From assembly GCA_050247195.1 (NCBI GenBank), contig JBFWUP010000007.1, positions 56,836 to 120,835 on the forward strand: DNA of 64,000 nt, given 5' to 3'. Numbering within the stretch: the first letter of the stretch is position 1; every line of letters begins with the position of its first letter. Origin of the DNA: Candidatus Melainabacteria bacterium (GTDB lineage: Bacteria; Cyanobacteriota; Vampirovibrionia; Vampirovibrionales; Vampirovibrionaceae). The notes beneath the pieces were generated by a model. The model searched no databases. It was given only the letters and a program-made list of their open reading frames with translations, and was not told the DNA's origin. The translations under genes and the position numbers were made by a program. This document shows, one piece after another, positions 18,204-28,424 of the stretch.

Positions 18204-18665
18204 TTACCCGTCCGACTTGAGGAGCTTACTGACGCCGCTGGCCATGAGCGTGCCGAGGGCGAAACCGCCGAGTGGGATGTAACTGCCGGCAAAGCGCCCG
18301 AAAGGCTTGCCGAGGTGAAAGCCAGGCAGCAGTTTGCGACCCAGAGCAAACCCGGCGCCGGCCACCTCCCAGATGACGATGTTTTTGGCGCCCTGGCCGG
18401 CGGTGGCTTTGGTGGCGGCGATTAGTGGACTGTTACCCTCCAGTTCCGCCTGACGATAAGCGCTGACGCCCGCGCGGGCGGTATCCAGACCCATGAGGCT
18501 GAGGCCGAAGAGCTGACCGAGGCCCATGCCGCTGACTTTGCCGAGCCCTTTTGCGTTGGGATCCCAAATGGTTTTCAGCGGCTCCACATTCTGGCGCCAC
18601 ACGGTCTCTTTCAGGTACTCCCGCCAGCCATGGTTGAATATCGTTTCGCCATTTCGTAGTGTTTT
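18204..18665. repeat. left arm of a ~460-bp inverted repeat (3' half of paralog A)
   Basis: About 95% nucleotide identity to the reverse complement of 22866..23324. Confidence 0.75.
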
Positions 18666-19109
18666 GAGAATATTAGAAGGTTTGAGTTCCCTTGTTATAG
18701 TTGCAAAATTCCATCTGACAAGCCTTCCGTAGTGTGTTGGGTTTCTCAATTGAGAAAAGCTTAAATCGCGTTTGTGTCTTAGTCCGAAAAGCCCTGTGTA
18801 ACTGTATGGATGAAAATTCATAGCACGTGCTCTTAATGAGGGGGAATCCCCCAAGCGAGGGTTATGGACTTGATCGAAGGCGCTAATAAACTGATTTCTC
18901 TTATTTAGTTCAACGGCGCTCCGTCCTGTTGCCCCATCGATGAATTTTCCGGCTGCCACTCGGCTCGTCCAAATGGCGAAGCGTTTCTCGAAAACGTCCT
19001 TCAATGTTTTATTGGGGCTAAACGGCACAATCTCCCGCACTGGCGGAAGCTTTACAGACCTCTGATCTGCAAACGTATGCAGTTGAATTGGAGTGCCCTG
19101 AATGCTCAA
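18204..19109 (-). CDS. hypothetical protein, paralog A of an inverted pair (variable N-terminal half, conserved Gly-rich C-terminal half)
   Basis: 301 aa; TTG start supported by protein-level conservation with paralog B from residue 3; C-terminal ~150 aa about 97% identical to 22419..23324. Confidence 0.65.
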   Translation of the reverse strand: MSIQGTPIQLHTFADQRSVKLPPVREIVPFSPNKTLKDVFEKRFAIWTSRVAAGKFIDGATGRSAVELNKRNQFISAFDQVHNPRLGDSPSLRARAMNFHPYSYTGLFGLRHKRDLSFSQLRNPTHYGRLVRWNFATITRELKPSNILKTLRNGETIFNHGWREYLKETVWRQNVEPLKTIWDPNAKGLGKVSGMGLGQLFGLSLMGLDTARAGVSAYRQAELEGNSPLIAATKATAGQGAKNIVIWEVAGAGFALGRKLLPGFHLGKPFGRFAGSYIPLGGFALGTLMASGVSKLLKSDG

Positions 19110-19265: not shown

Positions 19266-19547
19266 ATGCTATCCGCTCTACAGACAGGTCTATACAGCTT
19301 CTTGAGAGGAATCAGAGAAGGTGAAGACGGTGAGGAACCAAAGCCATCAACACCAAGGCCAAAATTGAGCTTCGCAGGTGAAGGTGATAACGGACTACCT
19401 CCGGTGCGTCCTGTTAAACCAGAACCCAATTACAAGTTGACATTTTCTGGCCCAGAGGGTGACGACGATGATGGTCCTGAACCCAAGCTGATGTTCGCCG
19501 GCAGCCTGCCCGCCGACGCCGGACGCCGGCTGAGCGTGCTGGGCTAA
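19266..19547 (+). CDS. small acidic repeat protein with three P-x-(K/Y)-KL-(S/T/M)-F-(A/S)-G repeats
   Basis: 93 aa; repeats PKLSFAGEGD / YKLTFSGPEGD / PKLMFAGSLPAD; SD AGGA 9 nt upstream. Confidence 0.55.
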   Translation: MLSALQTGLYSFLRGIREGEDGEEPKPSTPRPKLSFAGEGDNGLPPVRPVKPEPNYKLTFSGPEGDDDDGPEPKLMFAGSLPADAGRRLSVLG

Positions 19548-19592: not shown

Positions 19593-19871
19593 TTACTGGT
19601 TACCTGGTAGACCAGGAAGGTCCCCACCGCCGGAGGTGCCACCGGAATAGATGGGAACGCGTTGGCCGAGGATGAATTCGGAGCGGGTGTCAAAAAAGCT
19701 GGCCAGTCCGTTCATGCCGTTGGATTCAAACCGATCCGATAGGGCGCTGAAGCGATTGGCGCGGGTGGTCAGGCGGTTGGAAATAGCTGTATTCTGATCC
19801 GTGGTGTTGCTGGCGGCGCGCTGGGTATCCAGCGCCAGAATGAACGCGTTAAAGCGACTGAAATTGATCAT
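19593..19871 (-). CDS. small peptide gene, member 1 of the FG / C-terminal GLPGLPGNQ family
   Basis: 92 aa ending …GGGDLPGLPGNQ-stop; own SD and terminator. Confidence 0.65.
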   Translation of the reverse strand: MINFSRFNAFILALDTQRAASNTTDQNTAISNRLTTRANRFSALSDRFESNGMNGLASFFDTRSEFILGQRVPIYSGGTSGGGDLPGLPGNQ

Positions 19872-20000: not shown

Positions 20001-20171
20001 TTATTGATTTCCTGGTAAACCAGGCAAGCCACCACCAGACCCGCCACCGGAGTTTCCACAATTACCATGTCCGGCGTATACGGGCCTACCACCATTCTGT
20101 TTGTTACGCGCCTGATTGGCCCGGTTCTGACCAAAACTTGCAGCCGAAGAATATCCAATGCTCATTGACAT
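20001..20171 (-). CDS. small peptide gene, member 2 of the FG / C-terminal GLPGLPGNQ family (not in the ORF track)
   Basis: Hand-translated 56 aa MSMSIGYSSAASFGQNRANQARNKQNGGRPVYAGHGNCGNSGGGSGGGLPGLPGNQ; SD GGAGAT 7 nt upstream; terminator downstream. Confidence 0.6.
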   Translation of the reverse strand: MSMSIGYSSAASFGQNRANQARNKQNGGRPVYAGHGNCGNSGGGSGGGLPGLPGNQ

Positions 20172-20318: not shown

Positions 20319-20564
20319 CTATTGGCAACCAGGAAGACCTGGGAGGCAAGGTTGTGTTGTTGTCGTCACAACAGTCGTCGCGGGTGGCTTGCCATGGTGT
20401 CTTGGGGGTCTGTTTCCACGGCCAGGTCTGTTGCAGGCTTCAGCTACACCCGCTCCTAAAGTACCCACTGTCAACAATGCTCCCACCCCGGCTGCTGCCA
20501 TTTTAGAACGAGCACTGCGAAAAGCACCAAACTCAATGGAAGGGGTGTTCATCCCTACGTTCAT
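20319..20564 (-). CDS. small peptide gene, member 3 of the family (C-terminal LPGLPGCQ)
   Basis: 81 aa with a hydrophobic AAAGVGALLTVGTLGAGVAEA segment, a poly-Thr stretch, and …QPCLPGLPGCQ-stop; SD AGGAG 8 nt upstream. Confidence 0.6.
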   Translation of the reverse strand: MNVGMNTPSIEFGAFRSARSKMAAAGVGALLTVGTLGAGVAEACNRPGRGNRPPRHHGKPPATTVVTTTTQPCLPGLPGCQ

Positions 20565-22051: not shown

Positions 22052-22082
22052 AGAGCGCTCCGGTTCCGCCGGGGCGCTTTGG
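22052..22082 (+). terminator. terminator candidate after the Flp-like gene
   Basis: GCGCTCCGG-TTCCG-CCGGGGCGC imperfect stem followed by TTTGG. Confidence 0.4.
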
Positions 22083-22418
22083 TCGTTGGGGGGCAGCTCG
22101 CAGCGTCAGGCCAGGGCGTTCAGGCGTCGGCCTGCGTCGACGGGCGGGTTGGCGGTAAATTGGAGGCTGGGTTCAGGTCCATCTTTTCCTTCATCCCCCT
22201 CACCACCTGAAAAAAAAGGAGGTGCAAGCATTAAAGAGATATTATTGAGACTTGTCATAAGATCACCTTCAGTGTTGGGGGGGAACTGTCCTAAACCACA
22301 ATATAGAACTGACTTGACTTTTAGTCGCAGAGTGTTAATAACTCGTTACATGAACGGTGATAATGGTCTGCATGCGTTTTCATGCGGTTAATGGGGGTAC
22401 CATCTCAGGAGAGTTCAT

Positions 22419-23324
22419 TTGGGGGTTCAAGGAACAACCACCGTATTTACCTATGGTCAGCAAGGCAATCCTCATATGTTGCCGTCTGTCCGGGAGATTG
22501 TGCCGTTTAGTCCGAACAAAACTATCGAGGACGTTTTCGAGAAACGCTTCGCCATCTGGACAAGTCGAGTCGCCGCTGGGAAATTTGTGGATAATTTTAC
22601 AGGTAGGGGTTTGATTGATTTTGAAAAAAGGAATTCTTTCATAAAACAGTATGACAAGATTCACAATCCGACTTTGTCAAATTTCCCAGACCTTGCGGAA
22701 AAGGCTCTCGGCTTCAATCCTCACAGTTATTCTGGCCTTTTCAGTATTCGAAGCAAGCGAGATATGACCTTCTCTCACCTGAAAAGTCCGAAGTCCTATG
22801 TGAGAAAAGTACGGTGGAATTTTAAACCGCTTGGCCGACATTTATCTCCGAAGAATATTGTCAGTAACGTTCGATCTGGTCAGTCAATTTTTGCTTTCGG
22901 TTGGCGGGAGTACCTGAAAGAGACCGTGTGGCGCCAGAATGTGGAGCCACTGAAAACCATCTGGGATCCCAACGCAAAAGGGCTCGGCAAAGTCAGCGGC
23001 ATGGGCCTCGGTCAGCTCTTCGGCCTCAGCCTCATGGGTCTGGATACCGCCCGGGCGGGCGTCAGCGCTTATCGTCAGGCGGAGCTGGAAGGAAACAGTC
23101 CACTGGTGGCGGCCACCAAAGCCACCGCCAGCCAGGGCGCCAAAAACATCGTCATCTGGGAGGTCGCCGGCGCCGGATTTGCTCTGGGTCGCAAACTGCT
23201 GCCGGGCTTTCACCTCGGCAAGCCTTTCGGGCGCTTTGCAGGCAGTTACATCCCGCTTGGCGGCTTCGCCCTCGGCACACTCATGGCCAGCGGCGTCAGC
23301 AAGCTCCTCAAGCCGGACGACTGA
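22419..23324 (+). CDS. hypothetical protein, paralog B of the inverted pair
   Basis: 301 aa; TTG start with SD AGGAGA 5 nt upstream; C-terminal half near-identical to paralog A; the middle of the gene is AT-rich. Confidence 0.65.
   Translation: MGVQGTTTVFTYGQQGNPHMLPSVREIVPFSPNKTIEDVFEKRFAIWTSRVAAGKFVDNFTGRGLIDFEKRNSFIKQYDKIHNPTLSNFPDLAEKALGFNPHSYSGLFSIRSKRDMTFSHLKSPKSYVRKVRWNFKPLGRHLSPKNIVSNVRSGQSIFAFGWREYLKETVWRQNVEPLKTIWDPNAKGLGKVSGMGLGQLFGLSLMGLDTARAGVSAYRQAELEGNSPLVAATKATASQGAKNIVIWEVAGAGFALGRKLLPGFHLGKPFGRFAGSYIPLGGFALGTLMASGVSKLLKPDD
22866..23324. repeat. right arm of the ~460-bp inverted repeat (3' half of paralog B)
   Basis: Reverse complement is about 95% identical to 18204..18665. 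Confidence 0.75.
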
Positions 23325-23677
23325 GATTCAGGCAATGAGGTTCAGCGCCTGCGTGTTCAGGTCACTCGCAACGCCCATCAACCCGTTGCCCCCAAAGCCC
23401 ATCGCGCCGGCCGGAGCGGACGAACCCCCGCCAAACGTCCCGAAGGTGATGGCGATGTTCTGGCCAATCAGCTTGCGCAGCCCGCCCAGAGAGGCGGATG
23501 TGGCGTTGAGGCTGAGGCCATTGATCATGCGGAAGTGTTCTCTCTCATGCTCTGAGTGAATCAACACTTAGTCTACGGCCCGATTACCGGGTGCGCGCGA
23601 CCGGCGTGATAATTCTTAACAGACCGGCCTGCTTGGCTTACAATGGCGGGGCATCCTGAGAGAAAGGAACCAACACC

Positions 23678-25105: not shown

Positions 25106-25706
25106 ATTCACCACTCTGACGGCGCGTTGCGCGCCCATTAACCGCAGCAATATTGATACGGATCAGATTATTCCGGCGCGTTTTCTCAAAGGCACCACAA
25201 AAACCGGCCTGGGCAATGTGCTGTTTAACGACCTTCGGAACGGGAAGGACGGAAAGCCTGACCCCGCCTTCGTACTGAACAAACCGGCCTATCAGGGCGC
25301 ACAGATTCTGGTGGCGCCGTTCAACCTGGGCTGTGGCAGCTCGCGCGAGCACGCCCCATGGGCGCTGACGGATTATGGATTCCGCGCCATGATCGCCATT
25401 ACGTTTGCCGACATCTTCCGCAACAACAGCCTTAAAAATGGGTTGCTGCCGATCGCCCTGCCGGAAGCGGTGGTCACAAAACTGCTTGCGGATGCCGAAG
25501 CCGATCCGACGCTGGAAGTCAGTATTGATCTTGCTGCCCAGACGGTGAGCATACCCGGCCAGGGTGATTTCCCGTTTGAGGTGGATCCCTACCGGAAGAC
25601 CTGTCTAATGGAAGGGCTCGATGACATCGGCTATACCCTGCAGCACCTGCCCACCATTGAGGCCTATGAAGAGGAGCAGGACGCGTTCATCCGGACGCTG
25701 GCTTAA
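25098..25706 (+). CDS. leuD: 3-isopropylmalate dehydratase small subunit
   Basis: ATG at 25098 overlaps the leuC stop; SD GAAGGAGG; …[14 protein letters not shown]… LeuD signature. Confidence 0.9.
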
Positions 25707-25788
25707 AGCCGTTATCCCCACCGGGGGGTTGGCTATGCCGGAATGCTGTTTGATTTAAGCTGGGGATGTTGATTGAGGCTTTGCGCTA

Positions 25789-26003
25789 TGCAGGTCACAA
25801 CCTTTACAGGTCAACCACCAGTCTCATCTGGCTCTCAGCCCGGATTTGGATGCTGGATTCACTTACTCACTGGAACAGCACTGAGTGGTGGCGGTTATTT
25901 CGGTGCCTGGCGAAAGGGATTGGCCCCGTCCCCAAAACAACTCCCTTCCTTATTTATGCCCACCCCAAAATCTGAGAGACAAGGACGACGTCGTACACGC
26001 TGA
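25789..26003 (+). CDS. possible small ORF with an MQVTTFTGQ N-terminus
   Basis: 71 aa; the N-terminus resembles that of the 27507..27671 peptide (MQVSFGNN); weak SD; low confidence. Confidence 0.25.
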
Positions 26004-26050
26004 ACGCAGCCAATACATCGCTTCTGCCTCCCAATTACGGTGGGGCAGCA

Positions 26051-26815
26051 TTGTGGCGCACTCCTGTCCGGGAATCTGACCTGAGAGACGGAAACGGGAA
26101 AGTAATTGGGCCGGTGCCGGATTGGCGACGCCTCGGAGTGGCGGCTGGCTTATTCACGCTGGGCATGATGACCCACCAGCTCCCCGTCCGGGCCCGGCCT
26201 GGTAAGTCCCTGCTGCCCGCAGATTGGAAAGCGTTCTTCCGCATCGGCTCGGGGATTGTTGCCGTTAACCAGCTCAACAAAGCCATGGACTGGCATCCTT
26301 CCACCTGGCAGGGCGCATTGGAAGCGGTCACCGTCATCAACCCGCTGGCGCTGGGCATCAGTAACAAAAGCGTTGCACAGATGGTTGTAATGGCTCCGCT
26401 GGTGACCGGCGTGGTGCAGGCTGCGACTTTTCTGAATGAAAAGGTCACCGAACCACTCAAAGAAAAACTTCACATTCCCACACCCATCACCCGTCTGGCG
26501 CTTTCGCTTGGGTTTGCTGGAATCGGGATTATGGTCTATCCGCAGATTTTTAAGGTGGTGGCGCACAGTGGGTTGCTGGGCAGAGGAATCCGGGAGGAGG
26601 TCCTGGCTGGCGGGGCCGCCGCTGTGGCGGGGTCCGCCATGGTCACCTGTGCACGGGGATGTTCACCCGGCAGTGTGGTGTGTCTGAGCGAAACCGCCGA
26701 AATGATGGGCGGGATGGCCAACTGGTTTAAGTCACATTTTGGTCATGGCACATCTGGCAACAGCAACAACTCAGTATCACCCAGCTTAGCGGCGGGAGTC
26801 AGCGTGTATGCCTAA
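26051..26815 (+). CDS. hypothetical integral membrane protein
   Basis: 254-aa ORF with several hydrophobic segments; the true start may be the internal MMTHQ. Confidence 0.45.
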   Translation: MWRTPVRESDLRDGNGKVIGPVPDWRRLGVAAGLFTLGMMTHQLPVRARPGKSLLPADWKAFFRIGSGIVAVNQLNKAMDWHPSTWQGALEAVTVINPLALGISNKSVAQMVVMAPLVTGVVQAATFLNEKVTEPLKEKLHIPTPITRLALSLGFAGIGIMVYPQIFKVVAHSGLLGRGIREEVLAGGAAAVAGSAMVTCARGCSPGSVVCLSETAEMMGGMANWFKSHFGHGTSGNSNNSVSPSLAAGVSVYA

Positions 26816-27200
26816 CGCACTCTCTCAATCTATGACCGCAGGCCAATCCGTGGGCACATCAATCAGAACAACCCTGTCCTTTGGGCAGCAGGTGGAAATT
26901 CCACCCACACCGGAACACGTGCCGGAAAAATTCAAAACCGTCTGGGGGTCTCTGCCGCCCTGCTGCCGGAGCTTTTACCTCAACCCGGGCAGTGGCTGTT
27001 GCGCCGGCATGCCGGAGCCTAACGCTGCCATGATGGCGGTGCATAAAGCCAACGGCACAACCCCGCCGGCCGCTGAAACGCCAGCCTGCACACAACCCTC
27101 ACATGGCAGCTTATGGGCCGTAGGCGACTGGTTCCGGTATCTGGGCCGCGGCTTTGGCCAGGATATGAAGCGCATTTTCCTCGGCCGCAAGGAAGATTAA
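26808..27200 (+). CDS. hypothetical protein with paired-Cys motifs (PPCCRSF…GSGCCAG)
   Basis: 130-aa ORF; start overlaps the upstream stop. Confidence 0.4.
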   Translation: MPNALSQSMTAGQSVGTSIRTTLSFGQQVEIPPTPEHVPEKFKTVWGSLPPCCRSFYLNPGSGCCAGMPEPNAAMMAVHKANGTTPPAAETPACTQPSHGSLWAVGDWFRYLGRGFGQDMKRIFLGRKED

Positions 27201-27222
27201 AGTTAATTAAAGGTTAAACACC

Positions 27223-27453
27223 ATGTTTAGGAATATCTTTGCACCATTGAGAGCAATACATCTTGATCCGCGATTTAATGTGCCGGTTCATGAATTGCCC
27301 GGCCAACCGGATAGGTTGGTTAGTTTGGGCCTCGCCAACCGGCGTTCCGGATTCAAATCGGATACACACTGGGTTCCCGATCGTTTGCATCTGACCGGAC
27401 TCGGTCAGGCAGTAGTAAGAGCGCTGATGCCGAGAGCTCGCAGAAGAAGATAA
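27223..27453 (+). CDS. small basic hypothetical protein
   Basis: 76-aa ORF followed by a strong hairpin terminator. Confidence 0.3.
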   Translation: MFRNIFAPLRAIHLDPRFNVPVHELPGQPDRLVSLGLANRRSGFKSDTHWVPDRLHLTGLGQAVVRALMPRARRRR

Positions 27454-27462
27454 ACCAAAAAG

Positions 27463-27490
27463 CCCCGGTCAGTGACCGGGGCTTTCAATA
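27463..27490. terminator. bidirectional rho-independent terminator
   Basis: GCCCCGGTCAGTGACCGGGGC stem with T-runs on both strands. Confidence 0.5.
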
Positions 27491-27506
27491 AAAAGATGGG
27501 TTATGG

Positions 27507-27671
27507 CTAGCCGCAGCAGCCGCCGAATGTGACTTTATCAGCATTCAACACTTTGGGCAGTTTAATGCCAAACTGGGGAGATTGTGGTTGATGTACTTGA
27601 GGTGTAACAGCATTATTGGGCTGACCATTGTTAATGGGCAGAGTAGGATTGTTACCGAAAGAAACTTGCAT
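27507..27671 (-). CDS. small FG-motif peptide (54 aa) ending …KVTFGGCCG (not in the ORF track)
   Basis: Hand-translated MQVSFGNNPTLPINNGQPNNAVTPQVHQPQSPQFGIKLPKVLNADKVTFGGCCG; SD GGAGAGAGGA; its 5' UTR shares AGAGAGGACA with the 19593..19871 gene. Confidence 0.55.
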   Translation of the reverse strand: MQVSFGNNPTLPINNGQPNNAVTPQVHQPQSPQFGIKLPKVLNADKVTFGGCCG

Positions 27672-27703
27672 GAGACTTGTCCTCTCTCCGATAGAACTTC
27701 ATC

Positions 27704-27733
27704 ATTTTAGCCTCTGTACACGGAAATGTCCAA
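27704..27733 (-). promoter_or_regulatory. sigma-70-like promoter candidate for the 27507..27671 peptide gene
   Basis: -35 TTGGAC, 18-nt spacer, -10 TAAAAT, read on the minus strand; about 30 nt upstream of the ATG. Confidence 0.35.
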
Positions 27734-27953
27734 TGATTGTATGCAATCTGGCGCAATAAAAAAGGGCGCCCTGAAGACGCCCAATGTCATGGGTTTAGTG
27801 AGTGGGTACGTTTCGAGGTTCCAGAGTAATTGTTAACGCTGCGGGGCTTCCCCGCAGCAAACCATTCATTCCTGTCTCTGTGTGCTCTCTGGCATTCACG
27901 GTTGCCGCATAATGCTGATGACGGTTACCTCATGAAGAATGTTCCATGCCAAA

Positions 27954-27975
27954 AGGGATGCCCCCAAGGGCATCC
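27954..27975 (-). terminator. rho-independent terminator after the Asn-rich peptide gene
   Basis: GGGATGCC-CCCAA-GGGCATCCC perfect 8-bp stem followed by TTTTGG on the minus strand. Confidence 0.5.
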
Positions 27976-27998
27976 CTATGAAGCGGATTCACCGGGCC

Positions 27999-28196
27999 TC
28001 AGGCCAACCGGTTGACACGATTGGTGTCATGGTTTCGGTTGTTATCGTGGTTTCTGTTCCCGAAGGTGACGTTGGTATTGTTCTTGTCGTTCACAGGATT
28101 ATTATTTCGGGTGTTATTGTTACGGCCGAAATTCACATTATTGTGATTGCCGTTATTCCGATTCAACGGATTCCAGTTCATTGCGCCGGTCATCAT
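27999..28196 (-). CDS. Asn-rich small peptide (65 aa, about 35% Asn) with NFG/TFG motifs
   Basis: MMTGAMNWNPLNRNNGNHNNVNFGRNNNTRNNNPVNDKNNTNVTFGNRNHDNNRNHDTNRVNRLA; SD GGGAGG 8 nt upstream of the ATG at 28196; own terminator. Confidence 0.55.
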   Translation of the reverse strand: MMTGAMNWNPLNRNNGNHNNVNFGRNNNTRNNNPVNDKNNTNVTFGNRNHDNNRNHDTNRVNRLA

Positions 28197-28424
28197 GGTC
28201 GTATTCCTCCCATTCTTGGCTGTACGTACCGAAAAAAAAGGCAAAGGCGGTTCGGTACAGTGCCACAGTACGCAAGACGCATGGCGCCGTCTATTGGCAG
28301 AAAGGCTGATTTATGCGTATTCTCATCCGAGACTAAATGAGAAGTCACGTCTAATAATCAACATTGACGCTGGCGTGAGACTTGCCTACACTGAACAGAT
28401 ACGCAATCAGCAAAGGAGCTCCTC

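What the first reader, a model, noticed from the sequence alone, without database searches (positions are those of the whole stretch)
27463..28244. Second small-peptide locus: FG-motif peptide ending GGCCG and an Asn-rich 65-aa peptide, each with its own promoter/terminator signals
27507..27671 (minus, not in the ORF track) encodes MQVSFGNNPTLPINNGQPNNAVTPQVHQPQSPQFGIKLPKVLNADKVTFGGCCG. It has a strong SD and a σ70-like promoter (TTGGAC-18-TAAAAT). Its 5' UTR carries …ATCGGAGAGAGGACAAGTC…, almost identical to …ATAGAGAGAGAGGACATCC… upstream of the 19593..19871 peptide gene 8 kb away. 27999..28196 (minus) encodes a 65-aa peptide with 23 Asn residues and NFG/TFG motifs, a GGGAGG SD and a perfect hairpin terminator. 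Together with the 19.6-20.6 kb genes this defines a dispersed family of co-regulated, low-complexity N/G/Q-rich peptides of unknown function. Candidate roles are matrix or coat components, or secreted signalling or antimicrobial peptides.
Basis: seen in the sequence. Interest (0 to 1): 0.7.

Follow-up and report, generated by a model that had tools for sequence, protein, structure and literature searches.

The report
Small peptide genes with cysteine tail
Two tiny stand-alone genes in an uncultured Melainabacteria genome look real, and one of them (54 aa, ending FGGCCG) is conserved next to an uncharacterised cysteine-motif membrane module, so it probably acts as a flexible thiol arm; they are not a co-regulated family of matrix or antimicrobial peptides.

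Summary
pep1 (27507..27671, minus, 54 aa) has a 10/12 sigma-70-like promoter, a Shine-Dalgarno site and a 13-bp terminator. pep2 (27999..28196, minus, 65 aa) has 26 Asn, not 23, a GGGAGG Shine-Dalgarno site and a 10-bp hairpin followed by UUUU.

The window is a Candidatus Melainabacteria MAG whose nearest sampled relative is about 49% identical in a housekeeping protein.

New result: pep1 has one clear homologue, a 60-aa ORF ending ...LVRFGGCCG on a JGI metagenome contig. It sits in the same place, convergent with a conserved gene pair. That pair encodes a 233-264-aa helical membrane protein (CxRGCSPGSxxCLSE) and a ~130-aa protein with two vicinal Cys pairs. Protein-level constraint is evident (pN/pS 0.38).

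pep2 is an orphan. NCBI annotates its antisense strand, but codon usage, Shine-Dalgarno site, terminator and a shared V-x-F-G motif (P about 1e-7) favour pep2.

The "shared UTR element" is this genome's generic purine-rich ribosome-binding motif. It also precedes leuC, a cyclase and a response regulator, so co-regulation is unsupported.

Best reading, at low-to-moderate confidence: pep1 is a disordered carrier or adaptor peptide whose Gly-flanked Cys-Cys tail resembles SoxY's VTIGGCGG swinging arm and MerA's C-terminal Cys pair. It would relay sulfur or a soft metal with the neighbouring Cys proteins. No known family matches.

The parts
27507..27671 (-). pep1: 54-aa small protein, MQVSFGNNPTLPINNGQPNNAVTPQVHQPQSPQFGIKLPKVLNADKVTFGGCCG. 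It is Pro/Asn/Gln-rich, has three F-G motifs and ends in a Gly-flanked vicinal Cys pair.
   Evidence: ORF. NCBI annotates it as a hypothetical protein, MGE0201273.1. Its homologue at L019 1811..1993(-) lies in the same relative position. Smith-Waterman score is 81 against 23 +/- 4.6 for shuffles. tblastn E=3e-6. pN/pS is 0.38 over 30 codons.
27704..27732 (-). pep1 sigma-70-like promoter, TGGACA-17-TAAAAT.
   Evidence: Best promoter-like site in 19-29 kb, 10 of 12 matches.
27678..27688 (-). pep1 ribosome-binding region GAGAGAGGACA. The AGGA core lies about 9 nt before the ATG.
   Evidence: This is a generic motif of the genome's translation starts, not a peptide-specific element.
27458..27486 (-). 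pep1 intrinsic terminator: 13-bp perfect stem, 3-nt loop, U-run.
   Evidence: -24.8 kcal/mol with flanks; I2.
27999..28196 (-). pep2: 65-aa Asn-rich (26 of 65) small protein with two N-V-x-F-G motifs. It is an orphan.
   Evidence: ORF. The Logan gene caller calls it (L011 3935..4132). It has the best codon score of the six frames (0.26 against 0.00 for the in-phase antisense frame) and a genome-typical GC3 of 0.65. Motif statistics. No homologue found.
28206..28211 (-). pep2 Shine-Dalgarno site GGGAGG, 9 nt before the ATG.
27951..27977 (-). pep2 terminator-like hairpin (10-bp stem AGGGAUGCCC/GGGCAUCCCU, loop UUGG) followed by UUUUGG.
   Evidence: It fell below the scan's T-run threshold (4 U).
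27939..28340 (+). Antisense 133-aa V/I-rich ORF that NCBI PGAP annotates (MGE0201272.1) instead of pep2. Judged to be the mirror image of the Asn-rich frame, not a gene.
   Evidence: annotation; codon score -0.13 overall and 0.00 over the overlap, GC3 0.45. No Shine-Dalgarno site, and it reads through the minus-strand hairpin.
27764..27945 (-). Roughly 180-nt spacer between pep2 and pep1. It has a strong 10-bp hairpin (about 27838..27860) and its own terminator (27782..27764). This may be a third small transcript: a 24-aa ORF at 27795..27869, or a non-coding RNA.
   Evidence: The ORF is not in any database. Its codon score is poor, -0.41.
26808..27200 (+). 130-aa protein with two vicinal Cys pairs (PPCCRSFYLNPGSGCCAGM) and TLSFGQQ. 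It is convergent with pep1 and is the conserved partner gene.
   Evidence: Homologues lie next to the membrane-protein gene in L017, L018 and L019. No Pfam or NCBIfam hit.
26114..26815 (+). 233-aa helical membrane protein with the invariant C-x-R-G-C-S-P-G-S-x-x-C-L-S-E motif. It is the first gene of the conserved module.
   Evidence: Homologues at 48-60% identity across the aligned set (BLASTP local 50-64%). Invariant columns. Hydropathy. The AF2 model is all-helical but low confidence, pLDDT 52. No Pfam, NCBIfam or PDB match.

Best explanation
pep1 and pep2 are separate, monocistronic small-protein genes. They sit in a lineage-specific 2.7-kb insert between leuD and the monothiol glutaredoxin gene of a Melainabacteria chromosome.

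SHOWN:
- pep1 is a real, conserved gene.
- Its conserved parts are an N-terminal hydrophobic-x-F-G, an internal P-[QE]-F-(D)-G-I-K, and an invariant C-terminal V-x-F-G-G-C-C-G-COOH.
- It travels with a two-gene module: a helical membrane protein with CxRGCSPGSxxCLSE, and a ~130-aa protein with two Cys-Cys pairs.

INFERRED:
- pep1 is an intrinsically disordered carrier or adaptor peptide.
- The F-G motifs dock it on the module proteins.
- The Gly-flanked vicinal dithiol at its free C-terminus acts as a flexible 'swinging arm'. The arm takes up and hands over a thiophilic cargo to or from the Cys motifs of the partner proteins. The cargo would be sulfane sulfur or thiosulfonate as in SoxY, or a soft metal or metalloid as in the Mer and ArsD Cys-pair relays.
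- pep2 is a lineage-specific, possibly paralogous, Asn-rich disordered protein. It keeps two V-x-F-G docking motifs but has no thiol tail, so it may compete for or modulate the same docking site. Its function is otherwise open.

The purine-rich leader motif is simply the ribosome-binding site.
For: Gene reality and conservation:
- The homologous 60-aa ORF ends LVRFGGCCG and lies in the same convergent position after the 134-aa partner gene.
- Smith-Waterman score is 81 against 23 +/- 4.6 for shuffles. It is still 46 (P=0.001) without the last 8 residues.
- 18 of 30 C-terminal codons encode identical residues, 7 of them with different codons. pN/pS is 0.38.

Module:
- The gene pair is conserved in four genomes in different genomic contexts.
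- Cys motifs are invariant in the membrane protein. Two Cys-Cys pairs are seen in the partner in the window and L019; L017 and L018 carry them at different positions.
- L018 also carries a low-complexity G/N-rich protein ending FCVCGLT 1.7 kb from the module.

Transcription and translation signals.

F-G motif: non-random and conserved between the two pep1 homologues.

Literature:
- The SoxY carrier cysteine lies in a C-terminal VTIGGC / GGCGG swinging arm (PMC11237559, PMC6067878, PMC5336275).
- MerA requires a C-terminal vicinal Cys pair (PMC3466566).

pep2 strand choice.
Against: - Only two pep1-type peptides are known. Two of the four genomes with the module lack a FGGCCG ORF nearby, so the peptide is not obligatory for the module.
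- No module component matches a sulfur- or metal-handling family by sequence.
- There are no sox, mer or ars genes in the window.
- The resemblance to SoxY is an 8-residue motif only.
- pep1 has atypical codon usage (GC3 0.42, score -0.05).
- The topology of the membrane protein's Cys motif is unknown, because the model is low confidence.
- pep2 has no homologue at all, and its relation to pep1 rests on short motifs.
- There are no expression data.
Confidence: 0.35

Rival explanations
1. pep1 is a ribosomally made precursor of a modified peptide or cofactor. The invariant C-terminal FGGCCG is the core, as in mycofactocin MftA or PQQ PqqA where a conserved C-terminal core is processed. The two neighbouring uncharacterised Cys proteins would be novel maturation or export factors.
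For: The C-terminus is invariant while the N-terminal and central parts are variable. Co-location with two conserved genes of unknown function. The Gly/Cys-rich terminus recalls azole-forming cores (my own knowledge of microcin B17).
Against: No YcaO, radical-SAM, LanB/C/M, MNIO, peptidase or ABC exporter domain lies within about 10 kb, and none lies in the related loci next to the module. The gene is convergent with the module rather than co-transcribed with it. Two module-bearing genomes lack the peptide.
Confidence: 0.15
2. One reading: pep1, pep2 and the 19.6-20.6 kb peptides form one co-regulated family of secreted matrix, coat, signalling or antimicrobial peptides.
For: There are several small low-complexity ORFs on the same strand within 9 kb, most with an F-G motif. 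Three of them share the GAGAGAGRACA leader. A protein annotated as an Flp-family pilin lies among them.
Against: The leader motif is generic. pep1 and pep2 have no signal peptide or hydrophobic segment (sequence). No exporter is present. The C-terminal motifs differ (LPGLPG[NC]Q against FGGCCG). The 92-aa member has no FG. pep1 is tied to a different conserved module.
Confidence: 0.1
3. pep2 is not a gene. Either the region encodes the antisense 133-aa membrane-like protein that PGAP annotates, or it is a non-coding A-rich transcript. The same doubt applies, more weakly, to pep1 as a small RNA.
For: NCBI annotates the + strand ORF. pep2 has no homologue anywhere. No clear promoter was found for pep2. 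For pep1, the codon score does not discriminate between the strands.
Against: For pep2: it has the best codon score of six frames and a genome-typical GC3, whereas the antisense frame has GC3 0.45 and a score of -0.13. It has a canonical Shine-Dalgarno site at 9 nt, and the hairpin plus U-run is oriented for the minus strand. The in-frame V-x-F-G motif uses varied synonymous codons. The + ORF has no Shine-Dalgarno site and its open frame is the expected mirror of AAY codons. For pep1: protein-level conservation.
Confidence: 0.15
4. pep2 is an Asn-rich leader peptide that senses Asn-tRNA charging and attenuates transcription of downstream genes.
For: 26 of 65 codons are Asn, and the ORF is followed by a terminator hairpin.
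Against: At 65 codons it is far longer than known leader peptides (my own knowledge). No alternative antiterminator pairing overlaps the ORF end. Nothing related to Asn metabolism lies downstream on the minus strand: only a spacer with its own terminator, then pep1 with its own promoter.
Confidence: 0.03

Closest known systems
SoxY sulfur-carrier protein (C-terminal swinging arm VTIGGCGG-COOH)
   Same: The extreme C-terminus is almost the same: pep1 has K-V-T-F-G-G-C-C-G-COOH, and canonical SoxY has V-T-I-G-G-C-G-G-COOH. In SoxY the Gly-flanked Cys at the free carboxy terminus carries the covalently bound cargo (PMC11237559, PMC6067878, PMC5336275).
   Different: pep1 has 54 aa with no Ig-like SoxY domain. 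It gives no Pfam SoxY hit at E<=1 and no SoxY hit in the PDB at E<=10. It has no signal peptide, no SoxZ or other sox genes nearby, and two adjacent Cys instead of one. The resemblance is a motif, not homology.
Mercury and arsenic thiol relays (MerT/MerE/MerA C-terminal Cys pair; ArsD vicinal pairs)
   Same: These systems combine a small membrane protein and soluble proteins that each carry vicinal Cys pairs and pass a thiophilic ion from one to the next. MerA needs a vicinal Cys pair at its carboxy terminus (PMC3466566; PMC5715351 abstract). The 130-aa partner's GSGCCAG resembles MerA's C-terminal ...CCAG (my own recollection).
   Different: No sequence similarity to any Mer or Ars family. 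The window has no MerR/ArsR-type regulator or reductase. The cargo is unknown.
Small low-complexity metal-binding proteins and tails (H. pylori Hpn/Hpn-like; E. coli SlyD C-terminal GCCGG tail)
   Same: These are short, compositionally biased, probably disordered polypeptides that contain Gly-flanked Cys-Cys motifs (from my own knowledge, not tested here).
   Different: Those proteins are His-rich and bind Ni or Zn through many ligands. pep1 has one His and a single Cys pair. pep2 has no Cys.
YeeE/YeeD (YedE/YedF) thiosulfate uptake pair
   Same: The architecture is analogous: a polytopic membrane protein with essential conserved cysteines plus a small soluble Cys protein encoded next to it (my own knowledge).
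   Different: No Pfam Sulf_transp or TusA match. This pair is smaller and carries different motifs.

Membership tests
SoxY (Pfam PF13501) | Carrier Cys in a Gly-flanked motif (VTIGGC / GGCGG) at the extreme C-terminus | tested here: met
   pep1 ends KVTFGGCCG and the L019 homologue ends LVRFGGCCG. The motif is as given in PMC11237559 and PMC6067878. There is an I-to-F change, and the penultimate Gly is Cys.
SoxY (Pfam PF13501) | SoxY beta-sandwich domain detectable by profile. Sequences under 140 aa were discarded as poor quality in PMC11237559. | tested here: not met
   pep1 has 54 aa. No Pfam or NCBIfam hit at E<=1. No SoxY chain among PDB hits at E<=10.
SoxY (Pfam PF13501) | Periplasmic export signal, with SoxZ and other sox genes alongside | tested here: not met
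   The sequence has no hydrophobic N-terminal segment. No sox domains in the genes scanned across the window.
mer operon proteins (MerT/MerP/MerC/MerE/MerA) | Sequence membership of the Mer families, with a MerR regulator and MerA reductase in the locus | tested here: not met
   No Pfam or NCBIfam hit for the 233-aa, 130-aa or pep1 proteins. The window has no MerR or MerA. A MerR-family gene lies 3.3 kb from the module in L018 only, next to sufBCD.
RiPP precursor peptides (LAP/microcin B17-like, lanthipeptide, radical-SAM-modified, MNIO-modified) | A maturation enzyme (YcaO, LanB/C/M, radical SAM/SPASM, DUF692) encoded next to the precursor | tested here: not met
   Pfam scans of all sizeable ORFs within about 10 kb, and the precomputed Pfam lists for the related loci, show none.
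Class II microcins / double-glycine-leader bacteriocins | An N-terminal leader of 15-20 aa ending in GG/GA, and a C39-peptidase ABC exporter nearby | tested here: not met
   The only GG is at residues 50-51, directly before CCG. There is no ABC/C39 gene in the window near the locus.
Transcription-attenuation leader peptides | A short ORF rich in the regulated amino acid, directly upstream of and co-transcribed with the cognate biosynthetic or aminoacyl-tRNA genes, with alternative hairpins | tested here: not met
   Downstream of pep2 lie a terminator, a spacer with a second terminator, and the separately promoted pep1. No asn genes are present.
The pep1 / FGGCCG-peptide family proposed here | A small ORF (50-60 aa) ending V-x-F-G-G-C-C-G, convergent with the 130-aa Cys-Cys protein gene of the conserved two-gene module | tested here: met
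   Window 27507..27671 and L019 1811..1993. Only two members are known.
The pep1 / FGGCCG-peptide family proposed here | pep2 as a member (paralogue) of this family | tested here: inconclusive
   pep2 shares V-x-F-G twice and an in-register NNGxxNN. That second match was chosen post hoc, P about 1e-3 (DNA repeat D1). Overall alignment is not significant (P about 0.1), and pep2 has no Cys tail.

The most novel reading that the evidence does not exclude
pep1 defines a new class of minimal (~55-aa), intrinsically disordered 'swinging-arm' thiol carrier peptides. These would be free-standing equivalents of the SoxY C-terminal arm. They would dock through F-G motifs on a previously unknown membrane-and-soluble Cys-relay module found in non-photosynthetic relatives of cyanobacteria. 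pep2-type Cys-less F-G peptides would act as competitive modulators of that docking.
Probability: 0.2. Interest if true: 0.7.

Novelty: new variant of a known kind. Interest (0 to 1): 0.45.

Why it matters
If the thiol-arm reading is right, a free 54-aa disordered peptide would do the job that in known systems is done by the tail of a folded carrier protein (SoxY) or enzyme (MerA). It would also mark a conserved, wholly unannotated three-gene Cys module in Melainabacteria for sulfur or metal trafficking.

On the practical side, the locus shows that automatic annotation is unreliable for such genes. PGAP called pep1 but annotated the antisense strand of pep2. Another gene caller did the reverse. 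The pep1 homologue could only be recognised through synteny with the neighbouring module. A 'shared UTR motif' can also be nothing more than the local ribosome-binding consensus.

Tried and rejected
- Homology searches for pep1. The word-indexed search of 5.8 bn proteins found only pep1 itself. HMMER against 1.84 bn representatives found only itself plus P0135 at E=8e-5. P0135 is a 208-aa triple-repeat low-complexity protein on a sparsely coding, probably eukaryotic 962-kb contig, and I judge the match to be chance. The DNA-level scan of JGI metagenomes found nothing.\n- Homology searches for pep2. The DNA-level scan found nothing.\n- Rfam and tRNA scans of the window found nothing.\n- Synteny through the YgfZ-TPR neighbour. 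The nearest relatives are about 49% identical (BLASTP local; 40-46% in the genome-contig scan), and their leuD-Grx interval holds a BolA gene rather than peptides. This was uninformative for conservation, but it shows that the 25.7-28.4 kb segment is lineage-specific.\n- Alignment of the upstream regions of six small ORFs showed no shared element beyond the purine-rich ribosome-binding site.\n- A candidate 71-aa ORF upstream of the module (window 25788..26003 against L019 328..543) was not significantly similar (P=0.24) and was dropped.\n- The AlphaFold2 model of the 233-aa protein had pLDDT 52, so no fold search was run.\n- PDB profile searches and a viral-contig scan for the module found nothing.\n- Tandem-repeat analysis of pep2 found none.\n- I considered prenylation-type -CC/-CXC motifs, as in Rab GTPases or host-lipidated effectors, and FG-nucleoporin mimicry. 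Both were set aside as unsupported: there is no GTPase fold, no secretion signal and no evidence of a eukaryotic host.\n- I considered Pup/ThiS-like Gly-Gly modifiers and rejected them: there is no beta-grasp fold, no ligase genes, and the GG is not terminal.
Full report
**What is there.**
The minus strand of 27.4-28.3 kb carries the two ORFs exactly as quoted.

pep1 (27507..27671, 54 aa):
- It is preceded by the best sigma-70-like site in the 19-29 kb interval, TGGACA-17-TAAAAT at 27732..27704, with 10 of 12 matches.
- It has a purine-rich Shine-Dalgarno region, GAGAGAGGACA.
- About 20 nt after the stop comes a 13-bp perfect hairpin with a U-run.

pep2 (27999..28196, 65 aa):
- It has GGGAGG 9 nt before its ATG.
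- A 10-bp hairpin followed by UUUUGG lies downstream.
- I found no convincing sigma-70 promoter for it.
- It contains 26 Asn, not 23.

Between the two genes lies a spacer of about 180 nt with a strong hairpin and its own terminator (27782..27764). This may be a third small transcript.

**Where it comes from.**
Exact look-ups place the window in a Candidatus Melainabacteria MAG. NCBI annotates pep1 as a hypothetical protein, MGE0201273.1.

The lineage is essentially sampled once. The best non-self homologue of the adjacent 523-aa YgfZ-TPR protein among 5.8 bn proteins is about 49% identical. Two Logan assemblies are 100% identical to the window, so no population variation is available.

In the nearest relative the order is leuC-leuD-138aa-BolA-Grx-YgfZ. 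The window has no BolA there. The 25.7-28.4 kb segment that holds the two hypothetical genes and the peptides is therefore a lineage-specific replacement.

The rest of the window is ordinary chromosome: a sigma factor, a two-component system, purL/purF, arginase and a P-type ATPase. Rfam and tRNA scans found nothing.

**Is the 'shared UTR element' meaningful?**
The exact 11-mer GAGAGAGGACA does occur before both pep1 and the 19593..19871 gene. With up to one mismatch there are five copies, against 0.59 expected.

All five lie within 20 nt of a start codon, and two of those belong to a response regulator (3520) and a CHASE2 adenylate cyclase (18123). More generally, GAGAG lies within 30 nt upstream of 9 of 43 starts (P=1e-7). 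These include leuC, a VWA protein and the protein NCBI names an Flp-family pilin.

The motif is therefore the genome's common ribosome-binding context, not a regulon mark. pep2 lacks it. Aligning six peptide-gene leaders showed nothing else in common.

**Are they genes?**

For pep1 the decisive evidence is comparative.
- Searching with the neighbouring 233-aa protein found homologues at 50-64% BLASTP identity in three other Melainabacteria-type assemblies.
- In all of them the gene is followed by a 119-134-aa gene homologous to the window's 130-aa gene.
- On JGI contig Ga0654415_0013353 (L019), a 60-aa ORF runs convergently into the end of that second gene, exactly as pep1 does. It reads MNVIKAMLGFGTPKAVGNKANEASNEQKQPHNHQRPEFDGIKAKEPLKSDKLVRFGGCCG.
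- The two peptides share 23 invariant columns: the N-terminal F-G, Q-x-H, P-x-F-(D)-G-I-K, L-x-x-D-K and the terminal V-x-F-G-G-C-C-G.
- Smith-Waterman score is 81 against 23 +/- 4.6 for shuffles, and still 46 (P=0.001) without the last eight residues.
- tblastn of the L019 peptide hits only pep1 in the window, E=3e-6.
- Over the C-terminal 30 codons, 18 residues are identical, 7 of them through different codons, with pS 0.74, pN 0.28 and a ratio of 0.38.
- pep1's own codon usage is atypical (GC3 0.42). Nothing else in 1.84 bn representative proteins or in JGI metagenome DNA resembles it. The one sub-threshold hit is a repeat protein on a probably eukaryotic contig.

For pep2 there is no homologue and the annotations disagree.
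- PGAP annotates the in-phase antisense 133-aa V/I-rich ORF. The Logan gene caller calls pep2.
- The pep2 frame has the best codon score of the six frames (0.26). This is inside the coding range of 60-codon windows, whose 5th percentile is 0.14, and above the antisense 95th percentile of 0.23. Its GC3 of 0.65 is typical of the genome.
- The antisense ORF scores -0.13 with GC3 0.45. It has no Shine-Dalgarno site and reads through a hairpin oriented for the minus strand. An open antisense frame is the expected mirror of AAY codons.
- I therefore favour pep2, with residual doubt.

**The F-G motif.**
All five Phe residues of pep1 and pep2 are followed by Gly (permutation P=5e-6). Four sit in V-[STN]-F-G.

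[VIL]-x-F-G occurs 4 times in 11,089 residues of the window's long proteins and 4 times in these 119 residues (P=1.3e-7). The codons differ at synonymous positions, so the constraint is on the peptide. The motif positions are conserved in the L019 homologue.

Overall, pep1 and pep2 are not significantly alignable (P about 0.1). An in-register NNGxxNN match (DNA repeat D1; post hoc P about 1e-3) hints at old paralogy but does not prove it.

The wider 'family' is heterogeneous.
- The 66-aa ORF at 23328..23528 has three FG.
- The 56- and 81-aa peptides have one each.
- The 92-aa protein has 8 Phe and none followed by Gly.
- The 19.6-20.6 kb genes are united by a different C-terminal LPGLPG[NC]Q motif.

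**What it most likely does.**
None of pep1, pep2, the 130-aa protein or the 233-aa protein matches Pfam, NCBIfam or PDB sequences. The AlphaFold model of the membrane protein is all-helical but too uncertain to use (pLDDT 52). No RiPP maturation enzyme, exporter, or sox/mer/ars gene lies nearby.

What the three conserved products share is cysteine chemistry:
- The membrane protein has an invariant C-x-R-G-C-S-P-G-S-x-x-C-L-S-E motif.
- The 130-aa protein has two vicinal Cys pairs in the window and L019; L017 and L018 place them differently.
- pep1 has a Gly-flanked vicinal pair at its free C-terminus.

The tail K-V-T-F-G-G-C-C-G-COOH is nearly the canonical SoxY carrier arm, V-T-I-G-G-C-G-G-COOH. 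The Cys of that arm carries sulfur intermediates between enzymes (PMC11237559, PMC6067878, PMC5336275). C-terminal or membrane vicinal Cys pairs are also the hand-over sites of the mercury system (PMC3466566; PMC5715351 abstract).

From this I infer three things. pep1 is a disordered carrier or adaptor peptide. It docks through its F-G motifs. It presents a flexible dithiol arm to the Cys sites of the neighbouring proteins, to relay sulfane sulfur or a soft metal. This is a 'works like' statement only. pep1 fails the SoxY membership tests on domain, size, export signal and gene context.

Weak context hints cannot be told apart from chance: monothiol Grx and YgfZ next door in the window, sufBCD plus a MerR-type gene near the module in L018, and a CxxCxxCC protein near it in L017.

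Two further observations bear on the link between module and peptide.
- Against an obligatory link: two module-bearing genomes have no FGGCCG ORF.
- A related pattern: L018 encodes a G/N-rich 170-aa protein ending FCVCGLT 1.7 kb away, and L017 has a Pro-rich 126-aa protein with NMNFG in the pep1 position.

**Rivals.**
- A cofactor or RiPP precursor with a conserved C-terminal core (0.15).
- pep2 being spurious, with the antisense ORF or a non-coding transcript being real instead (0.15).
- An Asn-sensing leader peptide (0.03).

The evidence for and against each is given in the rival entries.

**Verdict.**
pep1 is a real, conserved small gene. It belongs to an uncharacterised Cys-motif module rather than to a co-regulated peptide regulon. 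pep2 is a probable orphan small gene. The leader motif is the ribosome-binding site. The mechanism is inferred from eight residues of resemblance and from gene neighbourhood, so confidence is modest (0.35) and interest is moderate (0.45).

Noticed in passing
window 23328..23528 (-): An unflagged 66-aa ORF, MINGLSLNATSASLGGLRKLIGQNIAITFGTFGGGSSAPAGAMGFGGNGLMGVASDLNTQALNLIA. It has three F-G motifs, a genome-typical GC3 of 0.82 and the GAGAGAGAACA leader. NCBI annotates it as hypothetical protein MGE0201278.1. It is convergent with the 301-aa gene, with a 3-nt gap between them.
   Followed up: partly
window 18204..19109 (-) and 22419..23324 (+): These two 301-aa proteins are inverted paralogues with near-identical C-terminal halves and no Pfam match. 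They bracket the 19.6-20.6 kb peptide genes and a 348-aa protein. That protein has an Flp-like N-terminus (GVTAMEYALPIG), and NCBI names it an Flp family type IVb pilin.
   Followed up: partly
window 19266..19547 (+) and about 22060..22300 (-): A 93-aa acidic, Pro-rich ORF has three K-L-x-F-[AS]-G repeats (PKLSFAGEG, YKLTFSGPEG, PKLMFAGSLP). A paralogous copy (…FSGGEGDEGKDGPEPSLQFTANPPVDAGRRLNALA) lies in the other arm of the inverted duplication. This suggests a real gene with a related F-x-G linear motif.
   Followed up: partly
window 20001..20171, 20319..20564, 19593..19871 (-): Three small proteins end in LPGLPGNQ, LPGLPGCQ and LPGLPGNQ. This shared C-terminal motif is distinct from pep1's FGGCCG. 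Two of the three are absent from the NCBI annotation.
   Followed up: no
window 27939..28340 (+): NCBI PGAP annotates this 133-aa antisense ORF (MGE0201272.1) instead of pep2. It is probably a mis-call caused by the mirror image of an Asn-rich frame.
   Followed up: yes
window 27764..27945 (-): The spacer between pep2 and pep1 holds a 10-bp GC-rich hairpin (CUGCGGGG-AAG-CCCCGCAG plus 2 flanking pairs) and a separate intrinsic terminator (GGGCGUCUUCAGGGCGCCC followed by a U-run). This may be a small RNA or a 24-aa ORF. A 14-nt stretch at 27904..27917 is 86% complementary to pep1 codons at 27608..27621.
   Followed up: partly
window 25706..28425, compared with L013 6800..7633: In the closest relative, the leuD-Grx interval holds a 138-aa gene and BolA. 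In the window BolA is missing from this position and the Cys-module-plus-peptide segment takes its place.
   Followed up: partly
window 30642..37662 (+): Three large proteins (912, 993 and 419 aa) have no Pfam match and have long Gly/Asn/Ser/Pro-rich N-terminal regions. The first begins MSNPMFGDQN. They may be secreted or surface proteins specific to this lineage.
   Followed up: no
L018 11082..11594 (-) and L017 9169..9549 (-): Low-complexity proteins lie near the conserved module in other genomes. One is a 170-aa G/N/Q-rich protein ending PFCVCGLT. The other is a 126-aa Pro-rich protein with NMNFG that occupies the position pep1 has in the window.
   Followed up: partly
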